64,000 nt of DNA from an uncultured Gammaproteobacteria bacterium (GTDB lineage: Bacteria; Pseudomonadota; Gammaproteobacteria; JABCZS01), in contig CAYUEL010000001.1 in NCBI GenBank assembly GCA_964443025.1, positions 6,155-70,154 of the forward strand. Direction: 5' to 3'. Positions 54,001-63,000 of the stretch are shown here, one piece after another. Position 1 is the stretch's first letter. Each line of letters opens with the position of its first letter. Made by a program: the position numbers.

Positions 54001-57000
54001 CTGCACTACCAATTACACCACCCACTTCACTGGCGCCGGTAGCATTGATCGTAGTATCAATCAGGTAAGTAGAAGGGTTAAAGCCTGAAAGTGTTACATT
54101 TTGAGCCGAACCAATAATACCACCCACACTTGTGACACTACCGACAGTAGTATCAAAACTTATATCGTTATAGACATGGATATTTGTAGCGCTAATACTG
54201 CTTCCTTTGCCACTACCTACAACATAACCAAAACTACTTGCCCCAGAGGAAAGCGCAATAATGCCGATAGGAGAAACCGCATTCCCAACCGTAAGATTGC
54301 CACCCAAATCGCTAGACGACATGCTACCCACAATGCCACCGACATTCATGACACCACTCACAATGCCTTTATTATGCAAAGTACCTGAGACTGTTCCACT
54401 AAGAACTGCCAAAATACCACCTGCAGTACCACCGGTAGCGCTCACACTACCGGAATTGGTCATATTAGCGGTAAAATTAGCATTTACATCGCCCATGATA
54501 CCGCCCGCATGATCACCGCTATCAATTTCACCTTGGTTTTCGAGCAAATCAGAAAATGTAACGCCAGTAGCATTAAACTCACCGATAATACCGGCCACAC
54601 CGAAAGCGCCTATGATATGGCCAGTATTAAGCATGCCATTTGCAAAAGTAAGATCAGGTGCATCAAGTTTAGCGATGATACCGGCTGCGAAATTACCTGT
54701 ACCAGTCACATCAGCATGATTCACCATATCGCTACCGACGCTAAAGGCAGTGATGGTTCCTGTATTAGCCATACGGCCAATCAATCCGCCCACATGATTA
54801 ACACCTGTGATGGAAATCGTTCCGCCGCTGATTGTAACGCTCGCGCTGGTGGGTTGGAAACTGAGTGAACTATTTGAAAGATAACCTATCAATCCGCCCA
54901 CATCATCCGCACCCGCAATAGTCGTTGTGCCCGTTGTGCGACTGAACAACAATGAGCTGGTGGTACCAAATGTGACCCCACTGTCAACGTAACCGACTAA
55001 TCCACCCGTGTAATTAGAACCCTTGACAGAGCCGCTTGTATTCGACAATGCTCCATTAAATGCGCCGTTTTGAACATAACTCACTAATCCACCGACATAA
55101 TCACCACCTGCAACACTACCTGAATTACTCATGTTTCCTGTGAATGTACTACCTAATATTGCACCCGCAATACCACCCACTTTCGTGCTTGCAGCATTCG
55201 GTGTCGATACACCAGAACCTGCAAATACCGAGCCGGTATTGTTAAATGTGGTAGCAACCGTTAATCCTGCTCTATTGAAACTACCAAATATGCCACCAAT
55301 ATTAGACGTTGATCCAGATGTATGTATTGCGGAAACCGTTGCATTATTTGTAAATGTGCCTGAAGATGTAAAGGCTGTAATATCCGATGCAACTTTACCA
55401 ATCAATCCACCAATGAAAGAGCCTGTTAATGAATTGGAAGTGACTGCCACATCTGAACCAACCGATGCGTTCGCAACACCCAATGTACTACCCGTGCTAA
55501 GATGACCAATCAATCCACCGACATTCGTCGTACCTAAAATCGTTGTGCCGCTGCCATTCGTTGTCGTAAATGTTGTTGCGGCGGATATTGTAATATTCGT
55601 GGCCGAACCTATCAAACCTCCCACGTTCGTTATACCGCTCACACTGCCTGTGTCTGTTAATGAAAGTGATGTTAACGTACCTCCGGTGACATTACCGAAC
55701 AATCCACCGGCATTACTCGATAATCCGCCCACTTCTGAGATATTACCCGTGTTAGAAAGATTGCCTGCAAAACTACCCGTGCTAAATGTGCCTAAAATAC
55801 CGCCTACACCCGTCACATTCGCATCACTCGTGTTATTCGTCACATCGCCGGTATTAGTTAAAGCATTCGTGATAGCAATATTACCCATCGCACCAAAAAT
55901 ACCGCCGGTATTTCCATTCGCTCCCAAACTCACCACATTCGCCGCATTGCTAAATGCTGTTATCGCTGCATACGATGTCACTGCGCTCAAATGACCAATT
56001 AATCCCCCAACCCGATTAATACCACGGACCGTTCCAGCAGTCGTTGTCAATACATCACCCGCTAACGCATTAAATGTTCCACCGGTCACTGAACCAATCA
56101 CACCGCCCACATTCGTATTACCGTCTGTCGTACTCGTCGCAAATCCTACATTACCTGAACTGGTCAATCCACCGCGAATATCACCGCCAGTCATGCTACC
56201 GATCACTCCACCTACATTTGAATTAGAAGCCGTTGCATCCGTTGTGGTATTAATTGAACCTGAGTTACTCCAAGTGCCCATGATAATACCACTTGCTAAT
56301 AATCCAACCACACCACCGACATTGGCATCACCACCTGCTGTGAAATTAGATGTTACATTCACCGTATTAGTGAGATTATTGGCAAATGCACTCGAACTCG
56401 TGATATTCATTTGCCCAATCATGCCGCCAACATTAAATCCCGTCACAATAAATGCTTTATTATTTAATGTACCTGAAATCACAGCCGTATCTGTGCCACT
56501 CGCATCTACCAAACCAACCATACCCCCTATGTTGCTGTTCGTTGTATCCACTGAAAAATAATTAGCCGTTGTCGTATTGACCGTGCTCGTTCCACTTAAC
56601 GTACTTGCACCTGACATGTGCCCTACAATTCCCCCTAAGTTTTTATTCGCTGAACCTGTATTTAATGCAAGGGATGTTGCAAGACTATTACCATAAATTT
56701 TCGTACCGGTAAGTGAACCATCATTCAACGTTCCGACCAATCCACCCACATCTAAATTACCTGTAATACTGTTTGGCGTTGTATTATTTCCCGAATACGT
56801 AAGCGCGCCACTCAATGTCGCTCCATTCACATATCCTGCAATACCGCCAACGCGTGTCGTACCCAAAACGGTACCTGAACCATTCATGGCGCTTGCTATT
56901 GTAATCGTCGAAACTGATCCAATTAAACCGCCGACATTGGTTGTGCCGGTGACATTGCCAGTTCCTGTTAATGAGGTTGATGTTATTGCGCCAGCGGTGA

Positions 57001-60000: not shown

Positions 60001-63000
60001 AACCAATTACACCACCGACATTCGCACTACCGCCCGCCGTAAAATTAGAAGTCACAGCGACTGTATTAGTAAGACTGCTCGAAAATGCACTGGAACTCGT
60101 GATGTTCATTCGACCAATCATACCGCCGACATTCGAACCTAATACCGTAAAGGATTTATTAGTAAGTGTGCCGGAAATCGTTGTGCTCGTTGAACCTGCT
60201 GCATCTAATAATCCCACCATACCGCCAATGTTTGTGCTATCAACGGGTGCTGTATAAGTCACATTATTTCCAATCGTGCTTGTACCGCTGAGTGTACCTC
60301 CTGTCATTTGTCCTATCATACCGCCTAGGTTTGTACCCCCGCTGTTTAATGTGAGTGTGGCTGTATCGGTACCATTACCATAGGTTTTTGTACCACTGAG
60401 TGTGACATTACTTAACAACCCGACAATACCACCGACACTCGTTGTACCCGTTACATTGCCATAACTTTGGAATGGGGCGCTGCCGAATGTGGCAGCCAAG
60501 CTACCAAGAATACCGCCGACATTGGTTGTTCCTGACCGCGCTATGCCGCCGCCATTTTGATTCGTGAGTGTTGTTGAACCCCAATTATTATTTGAAGCAG
60601 CACTCGAATTTAGACCAATAATACCGCCTACACCGGTCACACCGGTGACTTGTCCAAAGTTACTGAGGTTGTAAGTGGGTGTGAGACTCGTGCTACGGTT
60701 TTCACCAATAATACCGCCGGCACCTGAACCTGTTCCTGTCACAGCAGCATTATTGGTGAGTGTTACAGTGCTAGAACCATCCCCAAAAGTACCTCCACTT
60801 CCTCCAGCGATGGTCAAAGCACCAAATAATCCACCTACCCGGCTAGTACCCGATACAACAACACCTGCTGAAGTCGAAATAGTTCCCGTTCTTTCAAGAC
60901 GCATTATATTACTAGTAGTGCTTCCCCCGATTAATCCACCGACATTACTGGTACCTGAAATCGTACCGGCTGTCGTTTTAAAATCAGCGCTACCCGTAAA
61001 GGTAACGACACCGACATCCCCGAAAAGACCGCCCACTGAGGCGCCCGTACCACCCCCCACGGTAGTACCGGTGATACTACCTCCATTGGAAAGAGCACCT
61101 GTCATCGTGCCAGCATCAATGTAACCGGCGATTCCTCCTACCACTGAGCCACCGGTGACATTGATGCTATTGGTGAAACTGGTACCAATATTAACCGTAC
61201 TCGTGCTGCTTATTTTGCCAAAAATACCACCGACATTCGTACCCGCTACACTGAATGATTTATTATTGAGCGTGCTGCCCAACGTGATGGTTGTGTCATC
61301 AGTTGCTTCAAAGAAACCAACAATACCACCGATATTGCTGGTGTTTGAGATAGCGGAATAAGTGACATTATTGCCAATCGTACTCGTGCCACTAACAGTG
61401 TTAGTGCTTAAACCACTGGCGGTCATATAACCAACAATACCGCCTAAATTTGTACCTCCGCTATTTAATGTGAGTGTACCCACCGAGCCGTTACCATAGG
61501 TGTGTGTTCCTCCTAAGGCAGTTGTAGACACAGTACCATCAGTGAGCATTTTACCTACAATACCACCGACATTCGTTGTGCCGGTGACATCACCATAGCT
61601 ATTCAATGTCGTTGCAACAGAACCACCGTATATTCTACCGAATATTCCACCCACACTTTCTGAGCCCGAAATGCTACCCGCCGTTGTGTTGGTGAGAGAG
61701 CTGCTCGTGATCGTGCCACCTCTAAAGTCACCAAACAATCCGCCGACATTGGTTGCACTAGTTCCTGTGATATCACCACTGTTTTGAAGTACGCCTGTAA
61801 AACTACCCGTTGTCATTGCGCCCATGATACCGCCCAAACCGGTCGCGCTATTGCCGGTGACATCACCACTATTTGTTAATGCATTGGTAATGGTGATATT
61901 ACCCATTGCACCGAATATACCGCCGGTATTTCCATTCGCTCCCAAACTCACAACATCCGCCGCATTACTGAATAAAGTGGTTGCTGCATACGATGTTACT
62001 GCGCTCAAGTTACCAATCAATCCACCCACACTGCTAATACCACGTACTGTTCCAGCTGTTGTAGTTAATACATCACCCGCTGCAGCATTAAATGTACCGC
62101 CGGTGACAGAACCAATCACACCACCCACATTGGTATTACCCACAGTACTACTCGTTGCAAAACCAACATCACCTGTGCTGGTTAATCCTCCACGAATGTC
62201 ACCTCCCGTCATACTACCTACCACACCACCGACATTCGAATTAGAAACCGTCGCATCCGTTGTAAGGTTGATTCCGCCCGAATTACTCCATGTGCCTGTG
62301 ATAATACCTGCGCTCAATAAACCAATTACACCACCGACATTCGCATTGCCACCCGCTGTAAAATTAGAAGTCACTGCCACTGCATTCGAAAGATTATCAG
62401 CAAATGCACTGGAACTGGTGATGTTCATTCGACCAACAATACCACCGACATTTGAACCGGTGACAATAAATGTTTTATTATTCAATGTACCCGAAACGCT
62501 CGTTGTATCCGTACCACTTGCATCCATCAATCCAACAATACCGCCAATGTTACTATTGGTACTATCAACATCAAAGTATGCAGCTGTTGATGTACTGACC
62601 GTGCTCGTACCACTCAACGTGCTGCTACCCGTCATGCGACCCACAATACCGCCTAAGTTCGTACCATTATCACTCATCGCTAAAATGGCAGCACCACCGA
62701 ATGTTTTGCTGCCGGAAAGTAATCCACCATTTAATACACCGGCAATACCACCCACAGATGTGAGACCCGTAATATTGGCTTGACTTAATAATGTGCCTGA
62801 AAATTCCCCGCTACCACTTAAACTACCGACAATACCACCGACTCCTGTTCCTGCGGTTGCTAACACAACTCCCGTAGATGCATTCGTCATGTTGTAGGCA
62901 TTAGCGCCGCTGATCGCATAGGAACCAAATATACTACCGACATTAGAAAGCGTGCCTGTGCCTGTCACCGTCGCATTATTGGTGAGTGTTGTAGAAACCG

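What the first reader, a model, noticed from the sequence alone, without database searches (positions are those of the whole stretch)
55500..62800. Kb-scale near-identical internal duplications inside the giant gene
Three segments of 1.1 kb or more (about 55.5-56.6 kb, 59.2-60.3 kb and 61.8-62.8 kb) are almost identical. This is visible because they yield near-identical spurious plus-strand ORFs (for example 55545-55994, 59532-59876 and 61824-62783). Shorter units recur near 58.1 kb and 59.25 kb, and a repeated SNFTAGG-ANVGGVIGLLSAG... block recurs about three times in the protein. Such repeats promote recombinational length variation, possibly antigenic or adhesive variation. They are also a classic source of assembly collapse.
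Basis: seen in the sequence. Interest (0 to 1): 0.5.

Follow-up and report, generated by a model that had tools for sequence, protein, structure and literature searches.

The report
Old module duplications in giant beta-helix gene
The three "near-identical" kilobase repeats are real but old, clearly diverged copies (72-77% DNA identity) of a ~385-residue building block in a giant beta-helix surface protein of a Legionella-like bacterium, so this is ordinary domain duplication and not a recombination or assembly hot spot.

Summary
The three blocks exist at about the stated places: A 61613-62743, B 59279-60424, C 55583-56737, on the minus strand. They are far beyond chance. They are not almost identical. 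DNA identity is 72-77%, protein identity is about 70% over the full module and up to 84-88% in the core, and the longest exact shared DNA run is 35 nt. Synonymous sites are near saturation (dS 0.8-1.8) and dN/dS is 0.08-0.24.

The blocks are modules 2, 4 and 7 of a tandem series of ~385-aa super-modules, each of about 12 coils of ~33 aa carrying a NVGG[IL][IV]G motif. The gene encodes at least 4,405 aa and its 5' end lies outside the window.

All five closest relatives with intact N-termini (1,311-5,241 aa) start with a two-partner-secretion TPS domain and end in the same single WCGxxC cap; three of them (P0250, P0001, P0004) also carry the full tail. The protein is therefore most likely a TpsA-type secreted fibre or adhesin. 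The host carries Dot/Icm genes and looks like a member of the Legionellales.

Recombinational length variation and assembly collapse are not supported. Interest is low to moderate.

The parts
50783..64000 (-). Giant ORF encoding at least 4,405 aa. The stop codon is at 50783-50785. The 5' end is cut off by the window edge.
   Evidence: Listed as ORF 50783..63979. The frame stays open through base 64000 (VGGFVGA-M...), so the ATG at 63979 is not the start. Composition is G 19.5, T 15.0, S 12.9, N 8.1%. There are 121 GG[ILVMFA][ILVMFAT][GAS] motifs with a median spacing of 33 aa.
61613..62743 (-). It is a ~385-aa super-module of about 12 beta-helix coils.
59279..60424 (-).
   Evidence: Module HMM 630 bits, aa 1193-1574. 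Against A it is 72% aa and 71.5% nt identical, dN/dS 0.235. In the core dN/dS is 0.15.
55583..56737 (-).
   Evidence: Module HMM 662 bits, aa 2422-2806. Against A it is 75% aa and 72% nt identical, dN/dS 0.17. Against B it is 71% aa and 69% nt identical, dN/dS 0.15.
62723..63643 (-). Module 1, a diverged copy of the same super-module.
   Evidence: Module HMM 83 bits. 37% aa identity to A.
60404..61537 (-). Module 3, a diverged spacer module between A and B.
   Evidence: Module HMM 105 bits. 37-41% aa identity to A and B.
56894..58930 (-). Modules 5 and 6, diverged modules between B and C. They are 50% identical to each other.
   Evidence: Module HMM 149 and 107 bits. M5-M6 are 50% identical. 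The linked pair 59120-59713 vs 57977-58558 is 72% nt identical with dN/dS 0.26.
51689..51766 (-). The only stretch that touches the Pfam GLUG model, and it scores below threshold.
   Evidence: PF07581 E 0.032, 15.1 bits against a cut-off of 20.5.
51164..51307 (-). Single C-terminal cap element of the beta-helix (STYTGWQFPAVW...YATLSWCGASC). It contains the only two cysteines of the protein (51170-51187).
   Evidence: The cap HMM hits once, at aa 4232-4279, with 74 bits. Cysteines are at 4273 and 4277 only. W, C and C are invariant in alignment A2.
50786..51163 (-). Non-repeat C-terminal tail of about 125 aa: a proline-rich linker followed by a conserved domain of unknown function.
   Evidence: The full tail is shared only with the TPS-type relatives P0004, P0001, P0250 and P0247. 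It has no Pfam hit and no PDB sequence hit. The AF2 model is unusable, pLDDT 38.
55545..55994 (+). Antisense ORF with no evidence of coding. The ORFs at 59532-59876 and 61824-62783 are of the same kind.
   Evidence: All three lie antisense to the giant gene. Their translations are Pro/Val/Leu-rich and 72-86% identical to one another. I treat them as by-products of the Gly/Thr/Ser-rich sense codons.

Best explanation
The three blocks are paralogous copies of one ~385-residue super-module, each about 12 coils of ~33 aa carrying a T-N-V-G-G-[IL]-[IV]-G motif. They belong to a single uninterrupted right-handed parallel beta-helix of more than 4,200 residues. That helix forms the shaft of a giant protein of at least 4,405 aa whose N-terminus lies outside the window.

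Shown: the part of the shaft inside the window is a head-to-tail series of about 7-10 such modules. Copies A, B and C sit at positions 2, 4 and 7 and are separated by modules that are only 27-50% identical to them or to each other. The duplications are old, because synonymous sites are nearly saturated. The copies have been kept under purifying selection. They show no tracts of recent gene conversion.

Inferred: segmental duplication lengthened the fibre, and the A-type module was then held more tightly than its neighbours. That suggests it does something sequence-specific, such as binding a ligand, beyond acting as scaffold.

Inferred from relatives: the protein is a TpsA-type exoprotein. It would be exported by Sec, passed through an Omp85-family TpsB channel encoded elsewhere in the genome, and displayed or released as a fibre. 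At about 130 coils and 0.48 nm per coil, the window-encoded part alone would be about 60 nm long. The fibre ends in one disulphide-capable WCGxxC cap and a ~125-aa tail. Its most likely role is attachment to host cells by a Dot/Icm-bearing, Legionellales-like intracellular bacterium.
For: DNA identity is 72-77%, the longest exact run is 35 nt, dS is 0.77-1.77, dN/dS is 0.08-0.24, and runs tests are non-significant.

Homology to GLUG proteins is shown by 837 hits, most of them annotated PF07581. The single cap is shown.

TpsA inference: P0250 (5,241 aa), P0249, P0248, P0001 and P0004 all have an N-terminal TPS domain with E-values of 1e-113 to 1e-150 against a local TPS HMM. Pfam PF05860 is confirmed for P0001 and P0004. 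These relatives share the cap, and P0250, P0001 and P0004 share the full tail.

The host is inferred from DotH, DotG, DotB, DotC, DotM and DotL homologues in window 1-15 kb, and from DotH relatives named as Legionellales or Gammaproteobacteria MAGs.
Against: The N-terminus is not in the window, so the TPS domain is not observed. No TpsB (ShlB/POTRA_2) gene is present among the ORFs scanned in the 64-kb window. The Pfam GLUG model does not reach threshold anywhere in the protein. Foldseek against the PDB gave no significant match.

dS values near saturation are imprecise. Strong codon bias or amino-acid constraint could distort dN/dS. Adhesin function is pure inference, and no ligand or localisation data exist.
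Confidence: 0.75

Rival explanations
1. The blocks are recent, near-identical repeats that act as substrates for homologous recombination, producing length, antigenic or adhesive variation, and that are prone to assembly collapse.
For: The blocks are long (about 0.9-1.15 kb) and in direct orientation. Other GLUG giants do have 93-100% identical internal repeats. Relatives of this gene often sit at contig edges, for example P0247.
Against: DNA identity is 72-77% and the longest exact match is 35 nt. dS is 0.8-1.8. Tandem Repeats Finder finds nothing and there are no homopolymer tracts of 7 or more.
Confidence: 0.06
2. Concerted evolution. Occasional gene conversion among A, B and C, and not purifying selection on an old duplication, keeps the three modules more alike than the others.
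For: Same-codon use at identical residues (47-58%) exceeds the random expectation of 37-38%. A-B synonymous identity peaks at 0.73 in alignment columns 101-170. Exact runs of 31-35 nt are somewhat longer than a uniform mismatch model predicts. The closest relative, P0247, has its own within-lineage pair at 74%.
Against: Runs tests for clustering of synonymous identity are non-significant for all pairs (P 0.21, 0.84, 0.32). The longest same-codon runs are unremarkable, with a best P of 0.028 that is uncorrected. No tract exceeds about 84% nt identity in any 40-codon window.
Confidence: 0.12
3. The protein is not a TpsA. It leaves the cell by another route, such as a Dot/Icm (type IVB) substrate, a type I secreted adhesin or an autotransporter, or it is a cell-envelope protein.
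For: The TPS domain is not seen and there is no TpsB in the window. A Dot/Icm system is encoded 35-60 kb away in the same window.
Against: Every close relative with an intact N-terminus has a TPS domain. There are no RTX nonapeptides and no VENN motif. There is no autotransporter barrel or any other Pfam domain. Relatives also lack an adjacent TpsB, so its absence here is typical of the subfamily.
Confidence: 0.12
4. Assembly artefact. The three copies come from mis-joined reads of different strains or loci in a metagenome bin.
For: The source appears to be a MAG-type contig of 78,761 nt.
Against: One reading frame of more than 13.2 kb stays open through all the copies and the diverged spacer modules. 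The copies differ by about 25% of bases, too much for strain variants. Module phase and coil periodicity are continuous.
Confidence: 0.03

Closest known systems
TpsA exoproteins of two-partner secretion (type Vb): FhaB/FHA of Bordetella, HMW1 of Haemophilus, EtpA of ETEC
   Different: The coils are GLUG-type (NVGGIVG, about 33 aa), not FHA-1/FHA-2 repeats. The protein ends in a WCGxxC cap and a private ~125-aa tail. tpsA is not next to a tpsB here or in four relatives. The TPS domain of this particular gene is unseen.
GLUG beta-helix domain (Pfam PF07581 / Peptidase_M26_N), e.g. the NTD2 gating domain of M26 IgA1 metalloproteases (PDB 7uvk, 7jgj; B. ovatus 3n6z)
   Different: In those proteins the GLUG helix is one capped ~320-350-aa domain attached to an enzyme. 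Here about 11-12 domain-equivalents are fused into one uncapped run with a single terminal cap. No protease domain is present. The Pfam model scores below threshold.
Multi-domain GLUG giants (e.g. P0254 with 8 caps, P0311 with 5 caps, P0041, P0026)
   Same: They share the coil motif and a module periodicity of about 340-400 aa.
   Different: Each of their modules ends in its own cap, and several have 93-100% identical tandem copies. This protein has one cap, and its best module pair is about 70% identical.
Repeat-rich adhesins with near-identical tandem repeats (Bap/Esp family, RTX adhesins such as LapA, SiiE, MpIBP). This comparison is from general knowledge.
   Same: They are giant surface proteins lengthened by internal duplication.
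   Different: Those arrays are typically more than 90% identical at the DNA level and vary in copy number between strains. Here the copies are 72-77% identical and are not adjacent. No RTX motifs are present.
CdiA contact-dependent inhibition toxins
   Same: They have TpsA architecture with a distinct C-terminal region.
   Different: There is no VENN or pre-toxin motif. No same-strand downstream immunity gene exists: the next genes are a convergent 88-aa ORF and an M48 peptidase. The tail is conserved among relatives and not polymorphic.

Membership tests
Two-partner secretion TpsA exoprotein | N-terminal TPS secretion domain (Pfam PF05860) after a Sec signal peptide | not testable with these tools
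   The gene's 5' end lies beyond base 64000. The source contig could not be retrieved. Indirect support: the five closest relatives with intact N-termini all have the domain.
Two-partner secretion TpsA exoprotein | Cognate Omp85-family TpsB transporter (ShlB/FhaC with POTRA_2), usually adjacent | tested here: not met
   No ShlB/POTRA_2 hit among the ORFs scanned in the 64-kb window. The upstream side is unseen. Relatives L004, L007, L008 and L009 also lack an adjacent TpsB, whereas the distant relative L002 has one.
Two-partner secretion TpsA exoprotein | Long right-handed parallel beta-helix passenger | tested here: met
GLUG motif family (Pfam PF07581) | Match to the Pfam Glug HMM above the gathering score (20.5 bits) | tested here: not met
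   The whole protein gives no hit. The best piece scores 15.1 bits, E 0.032.
GLUG motif family (Pfam PF07581) | Significant sequence homology to proteins that carry PF07581, and the fold of solved GLUG domains | tested here: met
CdiA/CDI toxin | VENN (or similar) pre-toxin motif, a polymorphic C-terminal toxin and a downstream immunity gene | tested here: not met
   No VENN motif. The downstream genes are convergent. The tail is conserved across relatives.
RTX / type I secreted adhesin | GGxGxDxUx nonapeptide repeats near the C-terminus | tested here: not met
   Zero matches to the motif. Asp plus Glu make up only 3.2% of residues.
Classical autotransporter (type Va) | C-terminal beta-barrel translocator domain | tested here: not met
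   No Pfam hit in the C-terminal pieces. The tail is about 125 aa and is predicted as mixed helix/strand at low confidence.
Recombinogenic near-identical repeat array (contingency or variable-length locus) | Copies at least about 95% identical over hundreds of bases, or perfect runs well above the minimal processing segment | tested here: not met
   Best pair is 76.8% identical over 843 nt. The longest perfect run is 35 nt. Tandem Repeats Finder finds nothing.

The most novel reading that the evidence does not exclude
The gene may belong to an undescribed subfamily of 'orphan' TpsA fibres in Legionellales-like intracellular bacteria. Its features are a TPS domain, a single uninterrupted GLUG-type beta-helix made by fusing about a dozen former GLUG domains that lost their caps, one WCGxxC cap and a private ~125-aa tail. 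The A-type module is held at 80-88% protein identity in its core across saturated synonymous divergence, and appears three times about 11 and 18 nm apart along the shaft. On this reading it is a specific ligand-binding cassette that makes the fibre a multivalent host-cell adhesin.
Probability: 0.3. Interest if true: 0.5.

Novelty: new member of a known kind. Interest (0 to 1): 0.25.

Why it matters
The direct value is a correction. This locus should not be flagged as a recombination hot spot, a phase- or length-variable adhesin, or an assembly hazard.

There is also a modest positive result. The gene is one of the largest members of a poorly studied group of GLUG-type beta-helix exoproteins. 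Almost nothing has been published on this group: searches for 'GLUG motif' and PF07581 returned only passing mentions. It sits in a Dot/Icm-bearing, Legionella-like genome, and surface adhesins of uncultured members of that group are essentially unknown.

Uneven conservation among otherwise equivalent modules points to a candidate functional cassette that could be expressed and tested for binding.

Tried and rejected
- **Family scans.** Pfam and NCBIfam on the whole protein gave no hit. Pfam on nine pieces gave only a sub-threshold Glug hit.
- **Recovering the source contig or the gene's 5' end.** The exact look-ups of LemA and the E2 subunit were not on record. The genome-contig scan found only distant relatives at 28-38% identity. 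An exact 53-mer was absent from metagenome contigs. The DotH look-up returned only a 1.3-kb Logan contig. The cluster look-up gave no names. The exhaustive representative search did not contain the protein itself.
- **Possible divergent TpsB.** I tested the 649-aa gene downstream of P0001. It has no similarity to a true TpsB and no Pfam hit.
- **Other readings.** CDI toxin, RTX adhesin, autotransporter and chlamydial Pmp (GGA[ILV]/FxxN) were all rejected on motif counts and context.
- **Gene-conversion mosaic.** Tested with runs tests, which were not significant.
- **Literature.** Searches on GLUG and on Legionellales with two-partner secretion found nothing directly relevant.
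Full report
**Observation.** The region 50783-64000 is one minus-strand reading frame. It is still open at the last base of the window: the frame reads VGGFVGA before the first ATG. The window therefore holds the 3' 13.2 kb, or 4,405 codons, of a gene whose start lies outside it.

Self-comparison of the gene by blastn gives exactly three long mutually similar blocks:
- 61765-62659 vs 55735-56641: 76.2% over 908 nt.
- 61730-62551 vs 59393-60232: 76.8% over 843 nt.
- 59375-60232 vs 55676-56533: 71.9% over 864 nt.

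There is also a 72% pair, 59120-59713 vs 57977-58558, and a few ~200-nt matches (consistent). Codon-shuffled controls never exceeded 30 bits, against 447-659 bits observed.

They are not "almost identical". The longest perfect DNA match between any two places in the gene is 35 nt. Tandem Repeats Finder reports nothing.

**Age and selection.** At the protein level the three copies are 71-75% identical over about 360 residues, and 84-88% identical in the best 150-residue window. Protein identity exceeds DNA identity in the core.

Nei-Gojobori estimates give dS of 0.97-1.53 and dN/dS of 0.15-0.24 over the whole block. In the 220-codon core dS is 0.77-1.77 and dN/dS is 0.08-0.15. At residues identical between copies, the same codon is used 47-58% of the time, against 37-38% expected from the gene's own codon usage. 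Synonymous sites are therefore close to randomised.

Runs tests find no clustering of synonymous identity that would indicate recent conversion tracts. These are old duplications maintained by purifying selection.

From general knowledge, homologous recombination at about 25% divergence with perfect runs of 35 nt or less is very inefficient, and short-read assemblers do not collapse such copies.

**Architecture.** An HMM built from the three copies finds a head-to-tail series of ~385-aa units along the protein:
- M1: aa 120-426, 83 bits.
- M2 = A: aa 420-796, 646 bits.
- M3: aa 822-1199, 105 bits.
- M4 = B: aa 1193-1574, 630 bits.
- M5: aa 1691-1955, 149 bits.
- M6: aa 2169-2369, 107 bits.
- M7 = C: aa 2422-2806, 662 bits.

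Weaker partial matches continue to about aa 3850. In all-against-all comparisons A, B and C are 69-72% identical, M5 and M6 are 50% identical, and all other pairs are 27-46% identical. The three blocks are thus the conserved subfamily of a larger tandem super-repeat, and they are not adjacent to one another.

Below this level there is a ~33-aa coil. The protein has 121 strict GG[ILV][ILV]G motifs with a median spacing of 33 aa and the consensus xTNVGGIIGxxxGGT. Composition is G 19.5, T 15, S 13 and N 8%.

**Fold.** AlphaFold2 was run on module A with the seven paralogous modules as its alignment. It gives an all-beta model with pLDDT 77 and pTM 0.85. Foldseek against the PDB was uninformative.

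**Family.** Pfam and NCBIfam do not recognise the protein. Only one coil near the C-terminus touches the Glug model, and it scores below threshold at 15.1 against 20.5 bits.

Sequence searches nevertheless find hundreds of GLUG-annotated proteins, down to E 7e-43. An exhaustive search of 1.8 billion representatives finds 1,048 relatives. The closest are P0247 (43% identity, 5'-truncated at a contig edge), P0248 (2,673 aa), P0249 (3,740 aa), P0250 (5,241 aa), P0001 (1,659 aa) and P0004 (1,311 aa).

Local HMM searches show three things:
- All five relatives with intact N-termini start with a TPS secretion domain, E 1e-113 to 1e-150. Pfam PF05860 is confirmed for P0001 and P0004.
- The giant protein and these relatives contain a single cap element, sTYtGWxFxxxW...Y..L.WCGxxC, near the C-terminus. 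Ordinary GLUG proteins repeat that cap every ~340-400 aa; P0254 has 8 caps and P0311 has 5.
- The ~125-aa tail after the cap is shared only within the TPS-type group.

The only two cysteines in 4,405 residues lie in WCGASC.

Taken together, the protein looks like about a dozen GLUG domains whose caps were lost, fused into one continuous helix on a TpsA chassis. The TPS domain of this particular gene cannot be seen. No TpsB is encoded in the window. Four relatives also lack an adjacent TpsB, while a more distant TPS+GLUG protein in a Burkholderiales MAG does have one (L002).

**Other readings rejected.** There is no VENN motif, no RTX nonapeptide and no Pmp-type motif pattern. There is no barrel domain. 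No same-strand downstream gene could encode an immunity protein: the neighbours are a convergent 88-aa ORF and an M48 peptidase.

**Host and context.** The window carries a run of Dot/Icm type IVB genes:
- DotH/IcmK at 5702-6703.
- A TrbI-like DotG at 3502-5700.
- A DotB-like ATPase at 8204-9214.
- A TraI/DotC-like gene at 9272-10177.
- DotM at 11165-12295.
- A coupling-protein-like gene at 12295-14661.

It also carries a Sel1-repeat protein and a 1,390-aa DnaJ-domain protein. An identical DotH exists in NCBI and in run SRR8931239 on a 78,761-nt contig. Named relatives of that DotH are Legionellales or Gammaproteobacteria MAGs at about 63-69% identity. The gene therefore belongs to an uncultured Legionellales-like bacterium.

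**Comparison within the family.** Internal modules of P0250, P0249 and P0248 are at most 35% identical to each other. The closest relative, P0247, has its own 74% pair two modules apart. Module A has no relative above about 41% identity among 5.8 billion proteins. The A/B/C duplication is thus lineage-specific. It is younger than the split from known relatives but old on the synonymous clock.

**Verdict.** What is there is ordinary segmental duplication inside a giant GLUG-type beta-helix exoprotein that is probably a TpsA.

The mildly interesting residue has three parts: the unusually strong conservation of one module type, the single-cap fused architecture, and the Legionellales-like host. 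Remaining uncertainty centres on the unseen N-terminus and on function.

Noticed in passing
window 1670-14661: A Dot/Icm type IVB secretion cluster: DotH/IcmK (5702-6703, PF12293 1e-85), a TrbI-like DotG (3502-5700), a DotB-like T2SSE ATPase (8204-9214), a TraI/DotC-like gene (9272-10177), DotM (11165-12295) and a coupling-protein-like gene (12295-14661). It marks the host as Legionellales-like. An identical DotH is on record in NCBI and in Logan run SRR8931239.
   Followed up: partly
window 17256-21428 and 21565-23598: A 1,390-aa protein whose only recognisable part is an N-terminal DnaJ domain, next to a 677-aa protein with 8 Sel1 repeats. Both look like eukaryote-interacting effector candidates.
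   Followed up: no
window 14662-16143 and 40387-41844: Two paralogous ~490-aa ATPase_2/AAA_22/AAA_16 proteins of the 'archaeal ATPase' type sit 25 kb apart on the same strand. Their function is unknown.
   Followed up: no
window 23772-26255, 28156-29121, 1670-3487: Three sizeable ORFs (827, 321 and 605 aa) with no Pfam match, lying near the secretion genes. The ORF at 29994-31175 has weak recombinase and HTH_62 hits and may mark a mobile insertion. GC falls to 0.36-0.38 around 14-22 kb and 26-28 kb.
   Followed up: no
window 51170-51187: The only two cysteines of the protein (at least 4,405 aa seen) lie four residues apart in WCGASC at the cap of the beta-helix. W, C and C are invariant in all TPS-type relatives aligned, which suggests a conserved disulphide or metal site at the helix end.
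   Followed up: partly
L004, L007, L008, L009 (relatives): tpsA genes of this subfamily are 'orphans' with no adjacent tpsB. Their neighbours include Legionella-like features: GDA1_CD39 NTPDase and MipA (L004), an F-type tra cluster (L008), a Sel1 protein (L009), and eukaryotic-type Ser/Thr kinases next to P0247 (L006).
   Followed up: partly
window 50522-50788 (+): An 88-aa ORF lies between the M48 peptidase gene and the end of the giant gene. It is convergent with the giant gene and its last codons overlap the giant gene's stop codon. By eye it resembles YbeD/DUF493; this was not tested.
   Followed up: no
window 31189-38682 and 45665-48908: Leucine and branched-chain catabolism genes: acyl-CoA dehydrogenase, thiolase, carboxyltransferase, enoyl-CoA hydratase, HMG-CoA lyase, an AMP-binding ligase, and BCKDH E1a/E1b/E2. 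ETF and ETF-QO are nearby. This is consistent with an amino-acid-fuelled intracellular lifestyle.
   Followed up: no
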